Virus record (IMG/VR): IMGVR_UViG_2657245588_000004
Strand: one strand, 5' to 3'
From: a virus
Lineage: Duplodnaviria; Heunggongvirae; Uroviricota; Caudoviricetes
Length of the DNA: 37,702 nt
The notes under the pieces were generated by a model that had not been told where the DNA came from, searched no databases, and worked only from the letters and a program-made list of their open reading frames with translations. The position numbers and the translations under genes are program-made. Shown piece after piece: positions 1 through 34,538 of the stretch. How positions within the stretch are numbered: the stretch's first letter is position 1; each line of letters starts with the position of its first letter.

Positions 1-1053
1 TTACGGGGTAATGCCAACCGCTGCCGCCACTTTGTCGCCACTTGGCAGCGTTGCCAGAGGATTGAAACGGAGCGCCGTTTCTAGATGATCCGGTGCCAGA
101 TGTGCGTAACGCATAGTCATTTTTATATCGTGGTGTCCGAGAATTTTTTGTAAGGCCAGAATGTTTCCACCCGACATCATGAAGTGCGCCGCAAACGTAT
201 GGCGCAGAACGTGTGTGAGTTGACCGCGAGGGAGCACGATAGACGTTTTTTCCATCACGGATAAAAATTGAAAATAGCAGTCTGTGAAGAAATTGAACCC
301 ATCAAGCGCCATGATCTCTTCGTAAAGCTCTTTACTGATAGGGATGCTTCTGTTTTTCTTCCCCTTCGTTCTGACAAAGGTAATTCGGTATTTGGTCACC
401 TGTGAGCGGGTAAGATTTACGGCTTCACGCCAGCGTGCGCCTGTGCTTAAGCATATCTTAACTACCAGTGCCAGAATTGGGTCCTGACGTTTGCAATCAG
501 CCAGCAATTCAACAATCTGCTCATGGGTAAGCCATGCCATCTCTTTTTCTGCGATGGTGAATTTTCGCATGTTCTCCAGTGGGTTCGGATACGACCATTC
601 GCCCAGACGGGATAGTTCGCTAAAAACACTACTTAGATAGCTTTGCTCCAGGTTAATGGTGACCGGGCTTGCTCCTTTCTTCCATTTCTCGCTGAAGTAG
701 ATCTCGCCTGTCAGGCGTTTATCTCGATAGTGGGCAAACATTTTAGAGGTGAGATCGGTTGCAAGAGGATTGCCCAGAGCGTCAACCATCAACAGCAATT
801 TGTCATAGACATGCTGCCCAGCTGTCAGAGATTTACCATGTAGTTTGAACCATAGCTCAACCACGTCTTTCAGTGTTCGACGATCCACTGATTCACCCAG
901 CCAGGGCTTTGCTTCGGTTTCTTCCATCGTGTGGCGCTCAAAAGCCAGTGCTTCGCCTTTGGTAGCGAATTGTTTACGCACACGACGCCCACTTCGTCCG
1001 GCGGGGTAACATTCGCAAAGCCATTTCCCTGTGGTTAGTTTTCGTACTGCCAT
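1..1053 (-). CDS. int: Phage integrase, tyrosine recombinase (P2/186 Int-like)
   Basis: 350 aa; C-terminal catalytic region with HxxR (LRHTFAAHF) and terminal HDIKMTMRYAHL motif; ATG at 1053. Confidence 0.9.
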   Translation of the reverse strand: MAVRKLTTGKWLCECYPAGRSGRRVRKQFATKGEALAFERHTMEETEAKPWLGESVDRRTLKDVVELWFKLHGKSLTAGQHVYDKLLLMVDALGNPLATDLTSKMFAHYRDKRLTGEIYFSEKWKKGASPVTINLEQSYLSSVFSELSRLGEWSYPNPLENMRKFTIAEKEMAWLTHEQIVELLADCKRQDPILALVVKICLSTGARWREAVNLTRSQVTKYRITFVRTKGKKNRSIPISKELYEEIMALDGFNFFTDCYFQFLSVMEKTSIVLPRGQLTHVLRHTFAAHFMMSGGNILALQKILGHHDIKMTMRYAHLAPDHLETALRFNPLATLPSGDKVAAAVGITP

Positions 1054-1135: not shown

Positions 1136-2812
1136 CTAAGCAACATGTAGTTCATCGTTGGCGGAAGTGGCTGCTTTGCGCTCCTGCTCAATAGATAGAG
1201 ACTCTCTATATTCTTTCGCCTCTGCAAACATTGTCCAGTGGGCGTTGATGTTCATGTCTTCAATAACTGATTTGATTTCTTTTAAATTTACGTTAAAAAA
1301 CTCTTTTCGTGAGTTAATTTTATTGACCTGCTTTTCGTTGAAAACTTTATGCAGATGGTTTTCTAATGATGGTGCATCATCACTATAAATCATCGCATGA
1401 ACATCGAACGAAAAAGGAACACTAGCATCTCCGAGTTCACGAACACGATCAAGTGGTTCAAGGCGGCGTGTCATTCCAATTTTATATACATCTTCGCCAA
1501 ATGAACCAATATTACTAATGATATAGACGTGGCCTGATCTGGTTTGTTGAGCCATAGAAATAGCTCGTTGATTTTTAGCTTCAGCTTCTTCATATTTTAA
1601 CTGTAGTTCAGCTATTTTTTGCTCTAAAGCTAAGCGTTGTTCTTCATTTGCAAGCATAAGTTCTTTCGTTGCTTTATTTATAGCTTGCTGAATAGCTTTT
1701 TCTTCTTTTTCAGCTTCTTTTATCGCTTTTTCATATTCTCTACGAGCTCTTTCCTCTTCACGAAGCTGTTCTTTAATCCTTCTTTGCTCTTCTTTTTCTT
1801 CGAGCATAATTTCATTAACTGCTACACCCCATTTTAGCTCGTTGAGTCTTGCCTGAAGATAGATGTCACTTATTTTTGCGGACCTAAAGGCAGAGCCATT
1901 GTAATTTACTAGTTGAAATGCATCTTTTATTTCTTGGGAAAGTTTTCCAAAATTGTTGTGTTTGACTTTTGATAAAATACTGTCAACTCTTCCATTGAAG
2001 GCATCCAAAACAAAGTTTATGGCAGTATTACGCCTGTTTTGCTCAACATAATCACACGAAGCAGCTTTATTAGTTTTTATTAATGATTTGGTTAACTCTC
2101 TGGCTTTTTGTAATTCCTTGCCTGCATCTGTAAATTCATAATTTTCTGCCAGCTCATCAAGTACACTACGGTTAGGGATGATCCATTCATCACCATAACC
2201 TTCAATTTTATTTTTCATTGATTTTGCAACTGCTTCATATTTTTCTGCAAACTCTTTAGCTTCATATGCTGAACCAGCAATCTCCTTTGCTCTTTCTTCT
2301 GCATCAGAAATAATTTTTACTGCATTGTCATTAGCATTTGAGATTAGCTCATTTGCTTTATTATTAGCATTATCAAGACGTTCTTTGGCTTTCAGGCGTG
2401 CATCGCGAGCGTCTTTGGTGATTGCTATAGCTTCGCTATTAGCGTTGCTTATTGTCATCTGAGCTTGATAATTTGCTTCGTTTACTGTTTTAGCCGCCTT
2501 AATTTGGGCTTCATCTATTTTTTGCTTGGCTATTGAGTCCGCATTTTTTATCTTATTCTCTGCATCCATTACTGCGCTGTGCAATTCTTCGTATTGCCAC
2601 AATGGTGCTGCTCGCCCTTCAAGCTCTGATAATTCTCGTACGGTCTGTGCTAGTTTTTCTTGATTTTCAATCAGTTGGTTAGAAAGGGCTATGTTGTTAG
2701 CTGTCAGGTTATCTATAGCCGCTTTGTGTTTTTTACTTTGTTTAAATAATATTACAGCTAGAACAGGGGCGAGAAATGCTAATAAGAGTATAACGATGGC
2801 AAATGAATTCAT
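1136..2812 (-). CDS. Accessory protein: N-terminal TM helix, long coiled-coil, central DUF4041-like region, C-terminal GIY-YIG (T5orf172-type) nuclease-like domain
   Basis: 558 aa; hydrophobic N-terminus MNSFAIVILLLAFLAPVLAVILF; E/K/A-rich heptad-like stretches; C-terminus GHVYIISN..(10)..VYKIGMTRR fits the GIY-x10-YIG pattern; visibly AT-rich versus flanks. Family assignment from memory of motifs, not a search. Confidence 0.7.
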   Translation of the reverse strand: MNSFAIVILLLAFLAPVLAVILFKQSKKHKAAIDNLTANNIALSNQLIENQEKLAQTVRELSELEGRAAPLWQYEELHSAVMDAENKIKNADSIAKQKIDEAQIKAAKTVNEANYQAQMTISNANSEAIAITKDARDARLKAKERLDNANNKANELISNANDNAVKIISDAEERAKEIAGSAYEAKEFAEKYEAVAKSMKNKIEGYGDEWIIPNRSVLDELAENYEFTDAGKELQKARELTKSLIKTNKAASCDYVEQNRRNTAINFVLDAFNGRVDSILSKVKHNNFGKLSQEIKDAFQLVNYNGSAFRSAKISDIYLQARLNELKWGVAVNEIMLEEKEEQRRIKEQLREEERARREYEKAIKEAEKEEKAIQQAINKATKELMLANEEQRLALEQKIAELQLKYEEAEAKNQRAISMAQQTRSGHVYIISNIGSFGEDVYKIGMTRRLEPLDRVRELGDASVPFSFDVHAMIYSDDAPSLENHLHKVFNEKQVNKINSRKEFFNVNLKEIKSVIEDMNINAHWTMFAEAKEYRESLSIEQERKAATSANDELHVA

Positions 2813-9736: not shown

Positions 9737-10888
9737 ATGTTTGTAAAAAATAACTTTAATACAAATAATTTCGATGCGGAATTAGTTGAAGCGATTGGTA
9801 ATAGGCTGGAAAACAACCAATTTTCGGATGCAATACTTGCAGGAACCAAATATCTAACAACTTTGCTGCGTGAAAAAGGGCAATGTGAAGGGGATGGGGC
9901 TCAGCTTGTTGGTACTGTTTTGGGTGGACAATCACCTAGAATCCAAATTAATAGTCTTCAATCTGTATCAGAGCAGGACGAACAGCGCGGATTTGAAGCA
10001 CTATTAAGAGGCTACTATCAGTGTATAAGAAATCCAAGGACACATGACAATTTCCCTGATACAGAAGATTCCTGCATGAGAATATTGATCATGTTGGATA
10101 CTTTTATTAAGTATTTAAAAAGAGATGTTGCTGAGTTCGATTACACAGCAATTCTTGAAAGAATTTATGAGGTTCACTTTGTAAATAATTCTGATTATGC
10201 AGAAGCTTTAATATCACAAATTCCAGAAAAAAAACTACTAGATTTTTTCCAAAGTTTAATTTCTCGCTTTAATGAAAGGCCAACCAAGGAAATTGATTCT
10301 ATATTCAAAGCAATAAACCAACGCTTTTCAGGAGAGGAAGAAAAAGCCGCAATGCGGTTGCTAGGTGATGAGTTACGCAAGGCTAGCAATAATGTTGAGT
10401 TTGCTAATGTATTTAGAATAATTAAGCCGAGCGCATGGAGAAATCTTCCTGATGATGTTTTAATTAGAATGGAAAATATAATCATCGAAGAGTGCAAAAA
10501 AGGATATTTGGATTTCTATTCTGATGCGACCAAAGGAGCTATAGGAACATGGGGTAATACATTTGGTAGCAAATTTAAAAGAAGAGGTGATCTTGGTGAT
10601 GCTTTAATTGGATTGTTATATGATAGTTGGTATACGCAAAATTATGTTGCGAAATATTACGTTTTTTCAATCCCTTCTATCATTACTGATGATGTGAAAG
10701 TTAAGGAGTTAGCTGATGCTTTAGCTTATGCCACCATTGTAAATGGTGCTAAGCTTTTACGAACAAAATTGATTGATGCATGTAAAAATTATCCTGATAA
10801 GTTGAAAGAGCATCTTAGGGATGCTGTTCAGCAACGGATGGATAGTGATAAAAAATATGCGGAAGAATTATTAGGTCAAATAAGCTGA
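9737..10888 (+). CDS. Accessory protein with N-terminal HEPN-like region (Rx4H motif, TIGR02391/Ymh-like)
   Basis: 383 aa from ATG 9737 (track start 9734 is GTG); GGGGAG RBS; motif CIRNPRTHDNF (R-x4-H); visibly AT-rich; lies between candidate cos and portal gene. Confidence 0.65.
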   Translation: MFVKNNFNTNNFDAELVEAIGNRLENNQFSDAILAGTKYLTTLLREKGQCEGDGAQLVGTVLGGQSPRIQINSLQSVSEQDEQRGFEALLRGYYQCIRNPRTHDNFPDTEDSCMRILIMLDTFIKYLKRDVAEFDYTAILERIYEVHFVNNSDYAEALISQIPEKKLLDFFQSLISRFNERPTKEIDSIFKAINQRFSGEEEKAAMRLLGDELRKASNNVEFANVFRIIKPSAWRNLPDDVLIRMENIIIEECKKGYLDFYSDATKGAIGTWGNTFGSKFKRRGDLGDALIGLLYDSWYTQNYVAKYYVFSIPSIITDDVKVKELADALAYATIVNGAKLLRTKLIDACKNYPDKLKEHLRDAVQQRMDSDKKYAEELLGQIS

Positions 10889-18851: not shown

Positions 18852-19248
18852 TAAAGCAGTGCCTTATGTCCGTAATAACCCGGACAAACTGCATCTGTTT
18901 GTGGATAACGGTTCGCTGGTTGCCACGGGGGCCAGCTCCATGTCATGGGAGTACCGCTACACCCTGAACGTGGTGATAGAGGATTTCAGTGGTGACCAGA
19001 ATCTGTTGATGGCCCCGGTTTTGCTGTGGCTGCGTGATAACCAGCCCGATGCCATCAATAATCCCGCTTTACGGGAAAAGTTATTCACCTTTGAGGTGGA
19101 TATTCTGCGCAACGATGTCTGTGATATCAGCCTTAACCTGCAACTGACGGAACGTGTGCTGGTCAGCACTGACGGCACAGTGTCCAGCGTTGAAGCTGTA
19201 GCGGAACCCGATGAACCTGAAGAAATGTGGACGGTGAAACGTGGCTGA
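18817..19248 (+). CDS. R: Tail completion protein (gpR-like)
   Basis: GTG 18817 preceded by AGGAG; synteny. Confidence 0.7.
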   Translation: MNKPQSLRHALNKAVPYVRNNPDKLHLFVDNGSLVATGASSMSWEYRYTLNVVIEDFSGDQNLLMAPVLLWLRDNQPDAINNPALREKLFTFEVDILRNDVCDISLNLQLTERVLVSTDGTVSSVEAVAEPDEPEEMWTVKRG

Positions 19249-19687
19249 ATTGCAGAAGGTGGACGACTGGCTGAGTGCCTTGCTGGCGAATCTGGAGCCA
19301 GCCGCAAGAAGCCGTATGATGCGCCAACTGGCGCAGGAACTTCGCCGGACACAGCAGCAGAATATCAGGATGCAGCGCAACCCTGACGGCAGCAGCTATG
19401 AACCGCGACGGGTAACAGCACGCAGTAAAAAAGGCCGCATTAAACGTCAGATGTTTGCGAAGCTGCGCACCACAAAATACCTGAAAACTGCCGCCAGCGC
19501 CGATTCTGCCAGCGTGCAGTTTGAAGGCAAGGTGCAGCGCATTGCCCGCGTTCATCACTACGGCCTGCGTGATCGCGTCAGTCGCAAAGGACCTGAGGTC
19601 CGTTACGCAGAGCGTAAGCTATTGGGTATCCACGATAAAGAATATTATCAAATCAAGGATACCCTATTTGAATGGTTATCTACATAA
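19241..19687 (+). CDS. S: Tail completion protein (gpS-like)
   Basis: 148 aa; synteny; GTG start overlapping R stop. Confidence 0.75.
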   Translation: MAELQKVDDWLSALLANLEPAARSRMMRQLAQELRRTQQQNIRMQRNPDGSSYEPRRVTARSKKGRIKRQMFAKLRTTKYLKTAASADSASVQFEGKVQRIARVHHYGLRDRVSRKGPEVRYAERKLLGIHDKEYYQIKDTLFEWLST

Positions 19688-19690
19688 TAT

Positions 19691-19710
19691 AAAAATACAT
19701 CTGTATTTTT
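19691..19710. terminator. AT-rich perfect hairpin AAAAATACA-tc-TGTATTTTT between convergent S and accessory operon (bidirectional terminator candidate)
   Basis: Inverted repeat read directly; A-run one side, T-run the other. Confidence 0.4.
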
Positions 19711-19712
19711 TC

Positions 19713-20564
19713 TTATTTCATTTCGTGTGGCATATTTATGGCTTTAATTTTTTCGTGGTAATGATTAAACTCAATATGAGTATTGGTAAAATTGGATTCA
19801 AATGTATTCATTAAATTGGAATATAATGATTCATATGATAAGGATACTTTTTTTCCATTTTTTTCTGCAGTTGTGCTAATGTACCTATGTACTGCAGAAA
19901 AAAGAAAATGACCTCTAAGCCACTTTCTGTATTCTATCGATTTTGATTTGAAAGATGAATCGATGTTATCTGGTTCCACACCTAATTTTTCAATGATGGT
20001 GTTTTTGTAACTCGTGATTTTTTGCTCGCAAATTTCATTTGATTTTCTAGATTTCATGAAACGATCTGCACTGTCACCAATAACTGAAATGCCTTTTCTA
20101 TAAATATGATTGTATATATCAAGTTTTATTAGGGGTTCCATTTTGGTATAAAAGTCTTCTGTCCAAGAATCGACGTTGACATCGTTCATTATCTTTTGAG
20201 GTAATTTTCCTAGAGTTTTTATTGCCTTATATATGCCTGTTTTGTCAATAAACGTGTTTTCGATGGAGTGCCCATAAGTTTTTACAATGCGACTATCAGC
20301 GTTTTCCTCATTTTCAAATGTAGTGAAGTCTGCATCACATGCAATTATAATTTGAAGATCTTCATCAGTAACTCTATCAATATATTTTTTTAATTCTTCA
20401 CAGCCGCCAACATCTTTGATTTCAACCTTTAATGAACTAGCTTTATTAAAGATGATTTCCCAAAAGCAAATATCATCTGGGCCTTCAACATAAACCATGG
20501 CTTCAGCTTGGTAAAATAAATTCATTACATTTTCTGCTTCGGCAGAATAATGGAAATCATCCAT
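19713..20564 (-). CDS. Toprim-like (DUF4435/RloB-like) partner of the ATPase; AriB/AbiLii-like
   Basis: About 283 aa from ATG 20564 (alternatives 20594, 20648); N-terminal VYVEGPDDICFWEII then IIACDADF (E..DxD Toprim-like); 8-nt overlap with upstream ATPase stop; AT-rich. Confidence 0.65.
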   Translation of the reverse strand: MDDFHYSAEAENVMNLFYQAEAMVYVEGPDDICFWEIIFNKASSLKVEIKDVGGCEELKKYIDRVTDEDLQIIIACDADFTTFENEENADSRIVKTYGHSIENTFIDKTGIYKAIKTLGKLPQKIMNDVNVDSWTEDFYTKMEPLIKLDIYNHIYRKGISVIGDSADRFMKSRKSNEICEQKITSYKNTIIEKLGVEPDNIDSSFKSKSIEYRKWLRGHFLFSAVHRYISTTAEKNGKKVSLSYESLYSNLMNTFESNFTNTHIEFNHYHEKIKAINMPHEMK

Positions 20565-21816
20565 GAACCAATTTCTCCATATCAAAGATTGCATTTCGAT
20601 ATTTAGAAGCCACTTCTGGTGAATGCGTAGCGGCGATAATTTGCGCATTAGGATTAAGTTGTTTGATTGCAGGTATTATTTTTCGTTGCCATGCAATATG
20701 TAGCGATAATTCTGGTTCATCAGTAAGATAGATGAAAGGTTTGTTTTGCTGTAGCAAAGTTTCAATAAAAAGAATTAATAGCTGTTTTTCACCAGACGAT
20801 AAATTACTATGGCTAATCGGCCCATGCTCGTTTTCTATTACTAGCTCACCGGAGATAAAATTAAATTTTTTATCGGTTATGAACTCATGTAATGTTTCTA
20901 AAAATAGATTTATAGGAAGAAATATGTTTTTTATTTTCTCCTCGGATTTTAAAGACATCTTTATAATTCTTTGCGTCTTTCGTAATGCCTCAAATGATCT
21001 GTAATCTACATTTAAAATATTTCTGTTATTTTTTTCTGCAAGTCGTAATTCTTCAAATGTTTTGGCAATAGATTCAACGTGAAAGTTAATCTTCTTTCTG
21101 ACATCACTATCAAAAGCTCCAAGCTGAGAATATGCAGCTATTAAATTTCTACGTTCTTTTTCTTTATCAAAAGAAAAGTTAAATGTGTCATCGATACCAT
21201 CTTCTTTACTATAAAGAATAGAAGCAAGAACCTCTTTCTGTAATATTGCAGAAACATCACGAGCTCTTTGTGATAAATAAAGTTGATATTTTGTTAGGTT
21301 CTGCAATAATTGTTCTAATCGGTAATCAACAGGGTTGATTAATTTTGAGCCATATTTGTCTCTGATTTCAAAATCTTCACCGCTTCTAAGTCGGTAAACT
21401 GATAGAGAAGATAAAGCAACTAATTTATCTAACTCTAACTTAAGTTTTTCAACGTCTTCCTGATATTTTCTCCTCATATATATAGGTAGTCTACGATCTT
21501 CAAAGGATCTGATAATATATTTCTTTCTAGAAATTGTATATTCAAACGTAGGCAAAGCTTTAGTTATGTCAAATTTACTCACAACTTTTATTGTTTTAGT
21601 TTTGCTTCCTTCTTTTATTTTTATTGTTACATTATCAAAACTATTCTCATTTAGTGATTCGAGTTCTAATGCCAGAACTGAGTGAAGAATATTCATAAAG
21701 GTTGTTTTACCGGTCCCATTTCGACCAATAATAATATTTACATCTTCATTAAATGAACATGATGCATTTAGTCTTCCCCAAAAACCTTCAATCTTGACAC
21801 TAGATAATCTAAACAT
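20557..21816 (-). CDS. ABC-type ATPase (AAA_15/21-like), AriA/AbiLi/OLD-N-terminal-like
   Basis: 419 aa; Walker A GRNGTGKTT, signature-like LSSGEKQ, Walker B FIYLTDEPELSLH, H-loop ATHSPE; AAGGA RBS. Confidence 0.8.
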   Translation of the reverse strand: MFRLSSVKIEGFWGRLNASCSFNEDVNIIIGRNGTGKTTFMNILHSVLALELESLNENSFDNVTIKIKEGSKTKTIKVVSKFDITKALPTFEYTISRKKYIIRSFEDRRLPIYMRRKYQEDVEKLKLELDKLVALSSLSVYRLRSGEDFEIRDKYGSKLINPVDYRLEQLLQNLTKYQLYLSQRARDVSAILQKEVLASILYSKEDGIDDTFNFSFDKEKERRNLIAAYSQLGAFDSDVRKKINFHVESIAKTFEELRLAEKNNRNILNVDYRSFEALRKTQRIIKMSLKSEEKIKNIFLPINLFLETLHEFITDKKFNFISGELVIENEHGPISHSNLSSGEKQLLILFIETLLQQNKPFIYLTDEPELSLHIAWQRKIIPAIKQLNPNAQIIAATHSPEVASKYRNAIFDMEKLVHG

Positions 21817-21852
21817 AGGAATCCTTTATTTAGTCCATGAGTAAATGCACTT

Positions 21853-21870
21853 TGTATCATAACTGGCACA
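21853..21870. promoter_or_regulatory. TGT-N12-ACA dyad, candidate late promoter activator site upstream of V
   Basis: TGTatcataactggcACA read directly, centred about 56 bp upstream of V ATG. Confidence 0.4.
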
Positions 21871-21916
21871 AAACTAAAGAGTTTTTTTATCAATCTTATC
21901 TCGGCATGATTAAATT

Positions 21917-22495
21917 ATGAACGCACAATTAACCGAAATCATGCGCCTTATCACCAACCTGATCCGCACTGGTGTAGTCACCGAAGTGGACCGGGAACAC
22001 TGGCTTTGTCGGGTGAAAACGGGCGACCTTGAAACCAACTGGATTAACTGGCTGACGCTGCGCGCGGGTAATGCCCGCACATGGTGGCGACCATCGGAAG
22101 GTGAGCAGGTGGTGCTGCTGAGTCTGGGCGGCAATCTGGAAACCGCCTTTGCGCTGCCCGCTGTATATTCGAATCAGTTCGCACCACCGTCGGCGTCGGT
22201 GGACGCCTGTGTGACAGAACATCCTGACGGTGGCTGGTTTGAATACGAACCCGCTACCGGGCGCTGGTATGTCAGGGGAATCAAATCCATGGTCATTGAA
22301 GCTGCCGACAACATCACCCTGAAAACCAGTGAGTTTGTACTGGAGGCTGACCGCACACGCATTAACAGCGAAGTAGTGATCAATGGTGGTGTTACCCAGG
22401 GCGGCGGTGCAATGAGTTCTAACGGAATTGTGGTTGATGCACATCAGCATACTGGCGTCCTGAAAGGCGGCGACACAACCGGAGGCCCGGTATGA
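21917..22495 (+). CDS. V: Baseplate spike protein (gpV-like)
   Basis: 192 aa; synteny V-W-J-I-H. Confidence 0.8.
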   Translation: MNAQLTEIMRLITNLIRTGVVTEVDREHWLCRVKTGDLETNWINWLTLRAGNARTWWRPSEGEQVVLLSLGGNLETAFALPAVYSNQFAPPSASVDACVTEHPDGGWFEYEPATGRWYVRGIKSMVIEAADNITLKTSEFVLEADRTRINSEVVINGGVTQGGGAMSSNGIVVDAHQHTGVLKGGDTTGGPV

Positions 22496-25827: not shown

Positions 25828-26061
25828 ATGGAGAATATCTATTTCAGCCCAACGACCGTTGGTTTTTATGTTTCTGAACAAGAGCGACCTGATGATGCGG
25901 TTGAAGTCTCGCCAGAGGTGGAGGCATTTTTGAGGGAGTGTGTTATCTGGGGAGCGGATACATTTAACGTAGAGCGAGATGCAGCAACGGTGACATATCC
26001 AACAGAACTGCTTGAATATGTCACCACCTACAACGCCCCCGTTAAATATCCTGCGGATTGA
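25828..26061 (+). CDS. Tail fibre assembly protein, N-terminal domain only (possibly truncated)
   Basis: 77 aa; MENIYFSPTTVGFYVSEQ N-terminal pattern but lacks the conserved C-terminal W/P-rich end seen in the convergent copy. Confidence 0.45.
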   Translation: MENIYFSPTTVGFYVSEQERPDDAVEVSPEVEAFLRECVIWGADTFNVERDAATVTYPTELLEYVTTYNAPVKYPAD

Positions 26062-26452
26062 CAGGCCATACGGGTTTTGCTGTATCAACGCGCATCAGCA
26101 AGACCCGGTATTTTTTCCATTCAGATAACGCGGCGGTTTCTTCTGCCGTCGCGATTTCCGCATCAAAAGCATCCTGTCTCCAGGCTATTTCCTTATCAGC
26201 CATAGAACGCAATACCGTTCTTTTCTGTTCAGCCTGAATAATCTGTTGTTCAGCGGAGAGTGGCGGGATATCAATCCACGCAGGATTACCATTTTTATCA
26301 GCCCCCAGCGTTTTGCCTTGTGGCGCTACGCCTGTGTAAATTGCCATTGTTTCATCATCAACATCAACGCCATTTTCAGGCCATGAACCGGCGCTGATAT
26401 ATACCTCTTTTAGTGCTTTCGGATAGAAAGAGCCTTTATAAAATTTATTCAT
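26042..26452 (-). CDS. Tail fibre assembly protein (alternative, inverted orientation)
   Basis: ATG 26452 (track start 26482 is TTG); MNKFYKGSFYP N-terminus; C-terminus EWKKYRVLLMRVDTAKPVWPVNP resembles the P2 G / Mu U family end (recalled). Confidence 0.65.
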   Translation of the reverse strand: MNKFYKGSFYPKALKEVYISAGSWPENGVDVDDETMAIYTGVAPQGKTLGADKNGNPAWIDIPPLSAEQQIIQAEQKRTVLRSMADKEIAWRQDAFDAEIATAEETAALSEWKKYRVLLMRVDTAKPVWPVNPQDI

Positions 26453-26454
26453 TC

Positions 26455-26964
26455 TTAATACCCCAGCGCGATAAAACAACAATCTTCGGTGCCCTCTCCG
26501 GATGGCGACCAGTTCTGAATACTGATATGCGTTCTGCTGGCAATACGCACATTCATCGCGGCATTGTAGCCAGATGTTCCACGGTTTCCGGTCGCAAATA
26601 AGCCTGCATAGGGAAAAGCAAATGGTAAGGCATATCCAGCATCAGCTCCCTTTTGTGTTGCCACCGTTCCCCACTGCAACATAAGTTTCACCGGGTTTCC
26701 TGTCGTCGCAATGCATGGAATGTAGATGTAGCCATTCCCTGACATCATTGACCTGAAGCTGTCTAAATCCAGTAACTTCGAGGCATTATCTGCTCCAACA
26801 TCTCGTGTTGCGGCGGTCCCTAACTGGAGCGCATTTTGGAAGGCTGATACATCAGAAATATCAGCTCCATTAGCCGATTTCTGCATAGCTCCGGAGGCTT
26901 TATTTATCGTTTCGCCCAAACCAACGTTTATGAAAATGCAGAGATAACGGCTAACTGGCATCAT
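26455..26964 (-). CDS. Alternative tail fibre C-terminal segment in inverted orientation
   Basis: 169 aa; shares LQLG..A..RDVG and terminal ..A(I/L)GY with H; stop directly precedes assembly-protein ATG as H does with its partner. Confidence 0.6.
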   Translation of the reverse strand: MMPVSRYLCIFINVGLGETINKASGAMQKSANGADISDVSAFQNALQLGTAATRDVGADNASKLLDLDSFRSMMSGNGYIYIPCIATTGNPVKLMLQWGTVATQKGADAGYALPFAFPYAGLFATGNRGTSGYNAAMNVRIASRTHISIQNWSPSGEGTEDCCFIALGY

Positions 26965-26991
26965 CTCCGGTTTTTATTCAGGGGGATGATC

Positions 26992-27558
26992 ATGCTTATT
27001 GGCTATGTACGCGTGTCAACAAATGACCAGAACACCGATTTGCAACGCAATGCACTGAACTGTGCGGGATGTGAGCGGATTTTTGAGGATAAAATCAGTG
27101 GCACCAAGTCCGACAGACCGGGGCTGAAAAAGCTGCTCAGGACACTATCGGCAGGAGACACTCTGGTTGTCTGGAAGCTGGACAGGTTGGGGCGCAGTAT
27201 GCGGCATCTTGTTACGCTGATAGAAGAGTTGCGTCAGCGTGGCGTGAATTTCCGAAGCCTGACTGACAGTATTGATACCAGCACCCCAATGGGCCGTTTC
27301 TTTTTTCATGTCATGGGGGCCCTGGCTGAAATGGAACGCGAACTGATAGTTGAACATACCATGGCAGGGCTGGCTGCAGCTCGTGCCAAAGGCAGAGTAG
27401 GTGGACGCCGTCCTAAGTTGACCACCGAACAGTGGGCACAGATTGGGCGTTTACTCGAGGCCGGAGAATCAAGACAGCGTATTGCACTGATTTTTGATGT
27501 AGGCGTTTCTACCATTTATAGAAAATTTCCGGCAAATAAGAGCAATGAATCCCCCTGA
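26992..27558 (+). CDS. pin: Serine DNA invertase (Pin/Gin/Hin/Cin family)
   Basis: MLIGYVRVSTNDQNTDLQRNAL N-terminus with catalytic Ser, near-identical in pattern to e14 Pin as recalled; C-terminal HTH. Confidence 0.9.
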   Translation: MLIGYVRVSTNDQNTDLQRNALNCAGCERIFEDKISGTKSDRPGLKKLLRTLSAGDTLVVWKLDRLGRSMRHLVTLIEELRQRGVNFRSLTDSIDTSTPMGRFFFHVMGALAEMERELIVEHTMAGLAAARAKGRVGGRRPKLTTEQWAQIGRLLEAGESRQRIALIFDVGVSTIYRKFPANKSNESP

Positions 27559-33441: not shown

Positions 33442-34538
33442 ATTTCAGCTCTGAACTGCTTAACAAAGGCAACAAAACTCCCGCATTCAGCATCAGTATT
33501 GAGGGCAGGGATATCACCACTGTGCTGGATAACCGCCTGATGAGTTTGACGCTGACGGACAATCGGGGCTTTGAAGCGGACCAGCTTGATCTGGAGCTGG
33601 ACGACGCCGACGGAAAAATCGTGCTGCCGCGCCGTGGTGCGGTCATTACGCTGGCGCTGGGCTGGAAGGGGCAGCCGCTTTTCCCGAAAGGGGCATTCAC
33701 GGTGGACGAGATTGAACACACTGGCGCACCGGACCGCCTGACTATCCGGGCGCGAAGTGCTGATTTTCGTGAAACACTGAATACCCGTCGTGAAAAGTCG
33801 TGGCACAAGACCACCGTTGGGGAAGTGGTGAAGGAAATAGCTGCGCGGCACAAACTGAAGATGGCATTGGGTAAAGACCTGTCAGATAAACCCGTGGAAC
33901 ATATAGATCAGACCAATGAGAGTGACGGCAGTTTTCTGATGCGGCTGGCGCGCCAGTACGGTGCTATTGCGTCGGTGAAAAATGGCAATCTGTTATTCAT
34001 CCGACAGGGGCAGGGTAAAAGCGCCAGTGGTAAACCACTACCGGTTATCACTATCACACGTAAGGACGGCGACAGTCACCGCTTTACCCTGGCAGATCGC
34101 GGAGCTTACACGGGCGTAATTGCCAGCTGGTTGCATACCCGCGAACCCGCGAAGAAAGAAAGCACCGCGGTGAAGCGTAAGCGCAGGACTAAGAAGCAGA
34201 AGAAAGAGCCGGAAACGAAGCAGGGCGATTATCTGGTGGGTACGGATGAAAACGTGCTGGTACTTAATCGCACCTATGCTAATCGGAGTAACGCCGAACG
34301 GGCAGCGAAAATGCAGTGGGAACGCCTGCAACGCGGCGTTGCGTCATTCTCGCTACAACTGGCGGAAGGGCGGGCAGATCTCTACACGGAAATGCCAGTG
34401 AAAGTCAGTGGCTTTAAACAGCCGATAGATGATGCGGAATGGACCATTACGACTCTGACGCATACCGTCAACCCCGATAACGGTTTTACAACCAGTCTGG
34501 AGCTTGAAGTGAGGATTGATGATTTCGAAATGGAATGA
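33438..34538 (+). CDS. D: Tail protein gpD-like (late control D)
   Basis: 366 aa; synteny. Confidence 0.8.
   Translation: MNFSSELLNKGNKTPAFSISIEGRDITTVLDNRLMSLTLTDNRGFEADQLDLELDDADGKIVLPRRGAVITLALGWKGQPLFPKGAFTVDEIEHTGAPDRLTIRARSADFRETLNTRREKSWHKTTVGEVVKEIAARHKLKMALGKDLSDKPVEHIDQTNESDGSFLMRLARQYGAIASVKNGNLLFIRQGQGKSASGKPLPVITITRKDGDSHRFTLADRGAYTGVIASWLHTREPAKKESTAVKRKRRTKKQKKEPETKQGDYLVGTDENVLVLNRTYANRSNAERAAKMQWERLQRGVASFSLQLAEGRADLYTEMPVKVSGFKQPIDDAEWTITTLTHTVNPDNGFTTSLELEVRIDDFEME

What the first reader, a model, noticed from the sequence alone, without database searches (positions are those of the whole stretch)
19691..21916. ABC-ATPase plus Toprim-like two-gene operon inserted between tail genes S and V
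The sequence shows two overlapping minus-strand genes in an AT-rich block, convergent with S and divergent from V. The first is an ABC-type ATPase with Walker A, signature-like, Walker B and H-loop motifs; the second carries E..DxD Toprim-like motifs. By established knowledge this split OLD-like architecture is that of PARIS (AriA/AriB) and AbiL anti-phage systems. P2 itself, as I recall it, has no genes between S and V, and the candidate late promoter site for V is retained just downstream of the insert. That suggests cargo carried at a site other than the classical P2 hotspots.
Basis: partly seen in the sequence, partly recalled or inferred. Interest (0 to 1): 0.8.

Follow-up and report, generated by a model that had tools for sequence, protein, structure and literature searches.

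The report
PARIS defence genes in P2-like prophage
A P2-like E. coli prophage carries an intact but divergent copy of the known PARIS anti-phage system (AriA ATPase plus AriB nuclease) between tail genes S and V, a site that also holds a non-essential gene in phage P2 and turns out to be a swap-site for many different defence genes.

Summary
Two overlapping minus-strand genes sit in a 31% GC block between S and V, against 56-58% GC in the flanks.

- **Identity:** the genes are ariA (20557-21816, 419 aa) and ariB (19713-20564, 283 aa). They meet the published PARIS detection rule: AAA_21 82 bits, AAA_15 65 bits, DUF4435 91 bits. Their best PADLOC hits are AriA (6e-40) and AriB (3e-24).
- **Structure:** predicted structures of both proteins have the solved PARIS AriA and AriB chains as top PDB matches. 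All ATPase and Toprim catalytic residues are present.
- **Divergence:** this is a distant clade, about 16% AriB identity to the characterised E. coli B185 system.
P2 does have a gene here, the non-essential Orf30. The classical P2 literature already lists the "orf30 region" as one of three variable regions.
- **The S-V site in E. coli:** among relatives, roughly half of sampled prophages have an empty 68-bp gap. Others carry Septu, SIR2, TIR, KAP-NTPase or GmrSD-like genes. This exact PARIS cassette is in 18 of 5426 complete genomes.
- **Cassette structure:** each cassette brings its own S C-terminal tail and its own V late-promoter dyad.

Verdict: a new member of a known system at a known variable site. 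Interest is modest.

The parts
19241..19687 (+). Tail completion gene S. Its last 24 codons (19616-19687, GC 0.31) belong to the swapped cassette.
   Evidence: Pfam Phage_tail_S 4.9e-41. Identity to empty-site relatives breaks at 19615/19616. GC is 0.306 in the tail against 0.579 in the body. Each cargo type has its own diverged tail after a conserved LLG motif.
19616..21916 (.). Replaced block (cassette): S tail, terminator-like hairpin, ariB, ariA, and the divergent promoter region with the V late-promoter dyad.
   Evidence: Alignments to Klebsiella phage 4LV2017 and Escherichia phage 500465-1, which have 68 bp here. GC 0.309.
19691..19710 (.). AT-only hairpin between the convergent S and ariB stop codons. 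It is a weak candidate bidirectional terminator.
   Evidence: RNA fold -4.1 kcal/mol, z = -3.0 on the + strand; -5.1 kcal/mol, z = -1.9 on the - strand. It was not picked up by the GC-rich terminator scan. P2 has an annotated terminator at the equivalent place.
19713..20564 (-). ariB: DUF4435/Toprim nuclease effector, 283 aa.
   Evidence: DUF4435 1.4e-25, 90.9 bits. PADLOC AriB 2.8e-24. AlphaFold pLDDT 93. Top PDB fold hits are AriB chains 8ux9_A and 8v46_D, prob 1.0, TM about 0.52. Invariant E27, D31, D77, D79, E102.
20557..21816 (-). ariA: ABC/SMC-type ATPase sensor, 419 aa. It overlaps ariB by 8 nt.
   Evidence: AAA_21 8.2e-23, AAA_15 1.6e-17. PADLOC AriA 5.7e-40. The profile hits PDB AriA at 5e-27, against 3e-14 for the next family. 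The top 15 fold hits are AriA chains, E about 1e-18, TM 0.56-0.66. Walker A K37, Walker B D366-E367, signature LSSGE, H398.
21817..21916 (.). 100-nt divergent intergenic region. It holds the ariA Shine-Dalgarno AAGGA (21822-21826, minus strand) and the ariAB promoter, which I could not locate.
   Evidence: Sequence. Across nine cassettes only the dyad, the SD and the start codons are conserved. The sigma-70 scan found nothing convincing.
21853..21870 (+). TGT-N12-ACA dyad, the late-activator (Ogr-type) binding-site consensus of the V operon promoter.
   Evidence: A dyad is present 63-65 nt upstream of the V ATG in 15 of the 17 sequences examined, whatever the cargo and including empty sites. 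The exceptions are L072 (78 nt) and P2, where the strict pattern did not match. P2 has an annotated activator binding site at the equivalent place.
21917..22495 (+). Baseplate spike gene V. Homology to empty-site relatives resumes at its start codon.
   Evidence: Pfam Phage_base_V 6.1e-18, Apex 6.7e-06. Alignment.

Best explanation
The block is a PARIS-type anti-phage system carried as accessory cargo in the orf30 (S-V) variable site of a P2-like (Peduoviridae) E. coli prophage.

The mechanism is inferred by homology with E. coli B185 PARIS:
- In the lysogen, AriA, an ABC ATPase, assembles into an oligomer (a hexamer in B185). This oligomer holds AriB monomers inactive.
- ATP-dependent recognition of a protein from an incoming phage releases AriB. 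In B185 such triggers are anti-restriction proteins like T7 Ocr.
- Released AriB dimerises. Its Toprim active site cuts specific host tRNAs, which stops translation and aborts the infection.

Shown here: gene order, the conserved 8-nt overlap that suggests coupled translation, family membership by sequence and by predicted fold, and intact catalytic residues. Also shown: presence or absence among near-identical phage backbones, and recurrent residence of this clade in three P2 hotspots.

Inferred only: complex stoichiometry, the trigger, the tRNA target, and expression in the lysogen.

The cassette appears to be exchanged between P2-like phages by homologous recombination. The breakpoints lie in the conserved part of S (just before its last ~24 codons) and at the V start codon. 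Each cassette therefore carries its own S tail and its own V late-promoter dyad.
For: Family membership:
- Pfam and PADLOC hits.
- The published PARIS rule requires adjacent genes with AAA_15 >= 32 or AAA_21 >= 27 bits, plus DUF4435 >= 27 bits (PMC9122126). The scores here are 64.6, 82.3 and 90.9 bits.
- The AriA profile hits PDB AriA at 5e-27. The next family, retron PtuA, scores 3e-14.
- AriA model: the top 15 PDB hits are AriA chains.
- AriB model (pLDDT 93): the top 2 hits are AriB chains from the two independent PARIS structures, followed by OLD Toprim regions.

Catalytic residues:
- AriA K37 and E367 match B185 K39 and E393.
- AriB E27, D31, D77, D79 and E102 match B185 E26, D30, D88, E90 and E122.
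- Mechanism of the reference system: PMC11464382 and PMC12409363.

Cargo status:
- Empty site in phages 4LV2017 and 500465-1.
- This cassette is in 18 of 5426 E. coli genomes, and a second allele is in 3 of 5426.
- In a spread sample of 60 of 1085 E. coli records of this phage lineage, about 28 sites are empty.
- The occupied sites carry TIR, SIR2, Septu PtuAB, KAP NTPase, GmrSD-like and other genes.

Recurrence of this clade:
- At S-V in 20 fetched loci, with AriB identity 42-100%.
- At cI-int in 3 loci.
- At A-Q in 3 loci.

The same backbone (I, J, W and V proteins 96-99% identical) carries a PARIS allele with AriA 62% and AriB 44% identity in L054 and L055.
Against: - No experiment on this clade is known to me.
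- AriB is only about 16% identical to the solved AriB. Neither the single sequence nor a 50-member profile reaches it in the PDB by sequence. The effector link therefore rests on the DUF4435/PADLOC models and on fold similarity with TM of only about 0.5.
- NCBIfam has no model that names either protein.
- No convincing sigma-70 promoter was found upstream of ariA, so expression in the lysogen is assumed.
- The trigger and the tRNA target may differ from B185. The AriA segments that vary most here are residues 61-120 and 201-280. In the HMMER alignment the first of these includes the position aligned with the B185 central-pore arginines.
Confidence: 0.85

Rival explanations
1. It is another ABC-ATPase/Toprim defence system (AbiL, Gabija, class-1 OLD, or Septu/retron PtuA-like) rather than PARIS, with a different effector logic such as DNA nicking.
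For: The ATPase also matches many PtuA and MADS3 models at 1e-15 to 1e-23 and retron or Septu PtuA structures at about 1e-12. OLD C-terminal Toprim regions are the 3rd and 4th fold hits for AriB. Burman et al. place AbiL and MADS3-4 in the same ABC-ATPase plus Toprim group.
Against: AriA models and structures score 13-17 orders of magnitude better than PtuA and have higher TM, 0.6 against 0.4. The second protein matches only AriB and AriAB models in PADLOC, and DUF4435 in Pfam, not Toprim_Old or HNH. The split two-gene architecture is unlike single-chain OLD or GajA.
Confidence: 0.07
2. The pair acts mainly as an addiction or toxin-antitoxin-like module that stabilises the prophage or the cassette, not as an anti-phage sensor.
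For: One set of PDB entries names AriA 'antitoxin'. The cassette is conserved at >= 99.8% identity in all 18 E. coli genomes that carry it.
Against: [quoted passage not shown] The site is empty in about half of the related prophages and holds many unrelated defence genes in others. That pattern fits diversifying defence cargo rather than a maintenance function.
Confidence: 0.05
3. The genes are decaying or silent passengers with no current function.
For: No clear promoter was found. The GenBank phage record annotates them only as 'putative enzyme with ATPase activity' and 'hypothetical protein'.
Against: Both ORFs are full length and all catalytic motifs are intact. The active-site residues are invariant across homologues down to 28% identity. 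The 8-nt gene overlap and the Shine-Dalgarno sequence are conserved across cassettes. Both structure models are confident.
Confidence: 0.03

Closest known systems
PARIS (AriA/AriB) of E. coli B185, from a P4-like satellite hotspot; structures 8UX9 and 8V45-8V49
   Same: Two adjacent co-oriented genes encode an ABC ATPase (AAA_15/AAA_21) and a DUF4435 Toprim protein. The Walker A Lys, Walker B Glu and Toprim acidic residues are shared. The predicted folds of both proteins best match the solved chains. Both are carried by a mobile viral element as accessory cargo.
   Different: The sequences are very distant: AriB about 16% and AriA about 16-21% identity in structural alignments. AriB cannot be linked to the solved AriB by sequence search against the PDB. 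AriA is 419 aa against 464 aa. The system sits in a P2-like phage between tail genes S and V, not at the P4 psu-int site. The trigger and tRNA targets are untested. The AriA segment aligned to the B185 central pore lies in the most variable part of this clade.
Phage P2 orf30 region, the S-V variable locus of P2-like phages
   Same: The position is the same: after the O-operon end and before the V late promoter. The cargo is likewise on the minus strand, AT-rich and non-essential (P2 S-V gap GC 0.35).
   Different: P2 Orf30 (261 aa) has no Pfam or PADLOC match and no known function. Here the site holds a recognisable two-gene defence system.
P2 defence hotspots gpA-gpQ (old/tin) and Z/fun
   Same: They follow the same principle: an AT-rich accessory cassette between conserved phage genes, with diverse defence cargo. 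The same AriAB clade also occurs at A-Q (L056-L058) and at cI-int (L006, L048, L049).
   Different: The locus is different. The defence papers I could read analyse gpA-gpQ, Z/fun and a tail-cI site, but not S-V.
OLD-family nucleases (P2 Old, Gabija GajA) and lactococcal AbiL
   Same: They share the pairing of an ABC ATPase with a Toprim nuclease. OLD Toprim regions are the next-best fold hits for AriB.
   Different: Old and GajA are single polypeptides with a Toprim_Old domain. Here the two functions are split, and the nuclease is DUF4435. AbiL was not compared directly.

Membership tests
PARIS (AriA/AriB) | Two adjacent, co-oriented genes: an AAA_15/AAA_21 ABC ATPase followed by a DUF4435 protein, above the published score thresholds (32, 27 and 27 bits) | tested here: met
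   AAA_15 64.6 bits, AAA_21 82.3 bits, DUF4435 90.9 bits. The genes overlap by 8 nt. The rule is from PMC9122126.
PARIS (AriA/AriB) | AriA ATPase catalytic motifs (Walker A Lys and Walker B Glu, both required for defence in B185) | tested here: met
   K37 in GRNGTGKT, D366-E367 in FIYLTDE, signature LSSGE, H398. These are invariant in 41 homologues.
PARIS (AriA/AriB) | AriB Toprim acidic residues (B185 E26, D30, D88, E90, E122) | tested here: met
   E27, D31, D77, D79 and E102 are invariant in 50 homologues.
PARIS (AriA/AriB) | Fold of both subunits matches the solved PARIS subunits better than any other solved protein | tested here: met
   AriB: 8ux9_A E 7.8e-6 and 8v46_D 5e-5, TM 0.51-0.55. 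AriA: 15 AriA chains at E 1e-12 to 8e-19, TM 0.56-0.66 for the top 14, then retron PtuA with TM about 0.4.
PARIS (AriA/AriB) | Direct sequence homology of AriB to the characterised B185 AriB | tested here: inconclusive
   phmmer and a 50-sequence profile found no AriB chain in the PDB. The link is only through the DUF4435/PADLOC profile models and fold.
PARIS (AriA/AriB) | AriA6:AriB3 complex, trigger-dependent AriB release, tRNA cleavage, and anti-phage protection | not testable with these tools
   This needs multimer modelling or cryo-EM, pull-downs, tRNA sequencing and plaque assays.
P2 orf30-region accessory cargo (variable-locus 'moron') | Located between S and V, absent from close relatives, atypical composition, variable content among P2-like phages | tested here: met
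   P2 Orf30 is at the same site. Relatives have an empty 68-bp site. GC is 0.31 against 0.56-0.58. At least 10 different cargo types appear in the E. coli sample.
Class 1/2 OLD-family nucleases (P2 Old, GajA) | A single polypeptide with an N-terminal ABC ATPase and a C-terminal Toprim_Old domain | tested here: not met
   There are two separate ORFs. The nuclease matches DUF4435 and has no Toprim_Old hit.
AbiL (AbiLi/AbiLii) | Sequence membership in the lactococcal AbiLi/AbiLii families | not tested
   No AbiL sequence was available for direct comparison. In PADLOC the second protein matched only AriB and AriAB models.

The most novel reading that the evidence does not exclude
Three linked readings remain open:
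- The S-V (orf30) site may be a fourth, so far unexploited, defence hotspot of P2-like phages. Whole cassettes (S C-terminal tail, cargo, V late-promoter dyad) would be swapped there by recombination.
- This divergent PARIS clade may sense a different trigger or cut different tRNAs than B185 PARIS. It has colonised three P2 hotspots, and its AriB evolves faster than its AriA.
- The only conserved element of the 100-nt ariA-V divergent region is the late-activator dyad, which overlaps an extended -10-like TGATACAAA on the ariA strand. The prophage's own Ogr-type activator might therefore also modulate ariAB expression when the prophage goes lytic, as a form of self-immunity control.
Probability: 0.15. 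Interest if true: 0.55.

Novelty: new member of a known kind. Interest (0 to 1): 0.3.

Why it matters
The system itself is known, and standard defence-finder rules would flag it, so it does not open a new question.

Its modest value is threefold:
1. It is a distant, untested PARIS clade. That makes it useful for asking which parts of AriA set trigger specificity and whether the tRNA targets are conserved.
2. It shows that the old 'orf30 region' of P2-like phages is a real defence-cargo exchange site. The cargo seen there includes PARIS, Septu, SIR2, TIR, KAP-NTPase and GmrSD-like genes, plus several unannotated genes. This site could be mined in the same way as the gpA-gpQ and Z/fun hotspots.
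3. This one prophage stacks cargo at three hotspots: PD-Lambda-1, a Hypoth_Ymh/HEPN-like gene, and PARIS. This shows how a 35-kb phage arms its host.

Tried and rejected
- Sequence search of AriB against the PDB, as a single sequence and as a 50-member profile, found no AriB. Only a spurious bacterioferritin hit at E = 0.39 appeared. The link had to be made through the predicted structure.
- NCBIfam gave no hit above any cut-off for AriA and nothing for AriB.
- The sigma-70 and terminator consensus scan of 19400-22100 was not enriched (7 promoter-like sites against 11.4 expected). It found nothing in the ariA upstream region and no GC-rich terminator between S and ariB.
- Aligning nine ariA upstream regions showed only the dyad, the SD and the start codons as conserved, so the ariAB promoter is not located.
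- The hairpin at 19691-19710 is weak, -4.1 kcal/mol.
- No tRNA gene is in the window, so there is no self-encoded PARIS-resistant tRNA.
- A literature search for the phage name found nothing relevant. Searches for S-V, gpS/gpV or Peduoviridae as a defence hotspot found nothing specific.
- A structural role for the pair was rejected, because near-identical backbones have an empty site.
- The idea that this clade is exclusive to P2-like phages was rejected. More distant homologues (L008-L025, L059-L066) have no P2 genes within 8 kb.
Full report
**1. What is there**

The window is a complete P2-like (Peduoviridae) prophage. It starts with int at 1-1053 (minus strand) and ends with gene D at 34538. 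Host genes ybjL and ybjM follow at the right end. Positions 1-25388 are 100% identical to GenBank ON470620.1, 'Escherichia phage vB_EcoM-813R9'.

Two minus-strand ORFs lie between tail completion gene S (19241-19687, +) and baseplate gene V (21917-22495, +):
- A 419-aa ORF at 20557-21816.
- A 283-aa ORF at 19713-20564.

They overlap by 8 nt (ATGGATGA). The longer mechanical ORF to 20648 is not the annotated start.

**2. What it is**

Sequence models:
- The first protein matches AAA_21 (8e-23), AAA_15 (2e-17) and SMC_N.
- The second matches DUF4435 (1.4e-25).
- In PADLOC the best models are AriA (5.7e-40) and AriB (2.8e-24). For the second protein nothing but AriB and AriAB models matched.
- The published PARIS detection rule asks for adjacent AAA_15 >= 32 or AAA_21 >= 27 bits, plus DUF4435 >= 27 bits (PMC9122126). 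That rule is met.

AriA against solved structures:
- The single sequence hits the solved AriA at 6e-17.
- A 41-member profile hits it at 5e-27. The next family, retron or Septu PtuA, scores 3e-14.
- The AlphaFold model (pLDDT 81) has AriA chains as its top 15 PDB matches. These come from two independent cryo-EM studies.

AriB against solved structures:
- AriB could not be linked to the solved AriB by sequence.
- Its model (pLDDT 93) has the two solved AriB chains as the only matches below E = 1e-3, with full-length alignment and TM about 0.5. OLD-nuclease Toprim regions come next.

Catalytic residues correspond to those shown to be essential or structurally defined in E. coli B185 PARIS:
- AriA K37 and E367 match B185 K39 and E393.
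- AriB E27, D31, D77, D79 and E102 match B185 E26, D30, D88, E90 and E122.

I therefore file it as a PARIS system of a distant clade, with about 16% AriB identity to the reference.

**3. How it most likely works**

This is inferred by homology; nothing was tested here. In B185, an AriA hexamer holds three AriB monomers. ATP-dependent binding of a phage protein such as T7 Ocr releases AriB. [quoted passage not shown] Phage T5 escapes with its own tRNA variants (PMC11464382, PMC12409363).

Features of this clade that bear on the mechanism:
- The gene order, the conserved 8-nt overlap and intact active sites fit the same scheme.
- AriA varies most at residues 61-120 and 201-280, while the ATPase motifs are 87-92% conserved.
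- In HMMER's alignment, B185 central-pore residue R116 falls in the first variable segment. This is consistent with trigger specificity being the evolving part, as Burman et al. propose.
- AriB diverges faster than AriA across cassettes, for example 70% against 86% and 44% against 62%.
- The window encodes no tRNA.

**4. The site**

- P2 (NC_001895) has the non-essential Orf30 on the minus strand there. It is flanked by the O-operon terminator and the activator site of the V promoter.
- The orf30 region is named as one of three loci, with the TO region and Z region, where P2-like phages commonly carry foreign genes (PMC3091744).
- Phage R18C has a different ORF at this site (PMC6823313).
- The defence-hotspot papers I could read analyse gpA-gpQ (Rousset 2022; Vassallo 2022), Z/fun and a tail-cI site (iLund4u preprint). 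None analyses S-V.

**5. Survey of the site in E. coli**

I used the empty-site phage 500465-1 as the query.
- 1079 of 5426 complete E. coli genomes carry this phage lineage.
- I looked at 60 records taken at even steps down the ranking.
- About 28 of them have the empty 68-bp junction.
- About 23 carry an insert.

I checked five inserts, and the cargo lies exactly between S and V in every case:

| Locus | Cargo | Evidence |
|---|---|---|
| L070 | TIR-domain protein | TIR_2 1.5e-07 |
| L071 | SIR2 protein | SIR2_2 3.4e-26 |
| L072 | Septu PtuA and PtuB | 1.6e-138 and 5e-100 |
| L073 | KAP NTPase | PDC-S49 2.7e-135 |
| L074 | GmrSD_N/DUF262 protein | GmrSD_N 1.7e-17 |

Other annotated cargo includes DUF2971, DUF6216 (also in E. 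coli B/BL21), PcfJ and FRG proteins.

This exact PARIS cassette is in 18 of 5426 genomes at >= 99.8% identity. It sits at S-V in the copies I inspected. A second allele (AriA 62%, AriB 44%) sits at the same site in an almost identical backbone in 3 of 5426 genomes.

**6. Wider distribution of the clade**

Of the AriB-homologue loci fetched from genomes, IMG/VR and Logan:
- 20 have the pair at S-V in the same orientation, with AriB identity from 100% down to 42%.
- 3 have it between cI and int or the prophage end.
- 3 have it between A and Q.

More distant homologues in other phyla are not in P2-like contexts.

**7. Cassette anatomy and exchange**

- Identity to empty-site relatives stops inside S at 19615/19616 and resumes at the V start codon.
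- The last 24 codons of S are recoded and AT-rich (GC 0.31). They are still a homologous tail of normal length.
- Every cargo type has its own diverged tail after a conserved 'LLG' motif.
- In 15 of the 17 sequences examined a TGT-N12-ACA dyad sits 63-65 nt upstream of the V ATG, although the surrounding sequence differs. In L072 the dyad is at 78 nt, and the strict pattern did not match in P2.

The unit of exchange is therefore S tail, cargo and V promoter. The mechanism is most simply homologous recombination in S and V between co-infecting or resident P2-like phages. This is an inference.

A weak AT hairpin separates the convergent S and ariB. The ariAB promoter could not be located.

**8. 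Verdict**

The finding is real and correctly identified as PARIS-like. It is a new member of a known system at a known variable locus, and standard tools would call it. The useful by-products are the evidence that S-V is a defence-cargo swap site and the description of its cassette structure. Interest is modest, 0.3.

Noticed in passing
window 1136-2812 (-): The AT-rich island (GC about 0.35) between int and cI encodes a 558-aa protein. It matches PADLOC PD-Lambda-1 at 3e-120, with DUF4041 and T5orf172/MUG113 domains. GenBank annotates it as 'chromosome segregation ATPase'. This is a second defence cargo in the same prophage.
   Followed up: partly
window 9737-10888 (+): The AT-rich island between A and Q (the old/tin hotspot) encodes a 383-aa Hypoth_Ymh-domain protein (Pfam 2.9e-23). 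It has weaker PADLOC matches to PD-Lambda-3_B (2.4e-14) and Aga_HEPN. It is a probable third defence cargo.
   Followed up: partly
window 26042-27558: A resolvase-type DNA invertase (26986-27558 +) lies next to minus-strand tail-fibre C-terminal and tail-fibre-assembly ORFs (26042-26964). The location is between H and FI, the Z/fun position. This looks like an invertible host-range segment.
   Followed up: partly
window 25388 onward; ON470620.1 (L068): The GenBank 'phage' record is identical to the window only up to 25388, inside gene H. In the record a truncated H (358 aa against 494 aa) is followed directly by host ybjT and ybjS. The record also carries host genes on both sides. It is therefore a prophage region with host flanks, and it lacks the tail sheath-to-D genes that the window has.
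   Followed up: partly
L004 1440-2225 (-), phage P2 Orf30: P2 Orf30 (261 aa), the reference occupant of the S-V site, has no Pfam or PADLOC match at the thresholds used. Its function remains open.
   Followed up: partly
L007 8835-10017 ([Erwinia] mediterraneensis prophage): In this prophage the S-V interval is 3325 bp. About 1.1 kb of extra sequence lies between ariB and S, possibly a second cargo gene next to PARIS. I did not examine it.
   Followed up: no
L005, L007, L043-L055 against the window: Within this PARIS clade the effector AriB diverges faster than the sensor AriA. For example, AriB is 70%, 54% and 44% identical where AriA is 86%, 74% and 62%. I know of no explanation. It may reflect pressure from phage inhibitors or tRNA decoys on AriB.
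   Followed up: partly
hits H101-H103 (E. coli B, BL21, C2566): The P2-like remnant of laboratory E. coli B strains carries a DUF6216-family gene in the matched L-to-I region. I did not confirm that it lies between S and V in these strains. It is an easily testable candidate cargo of unknown function.
   Followed up: no
L070 3273-4073 (+): The other four S-V cargoes checked here, and ariAB, are on the minus strand, opposite to the late genes. The TIR-domain gene in E. coli CX08 is on the plus strand, co-directional with S and V.
   Followed up: no
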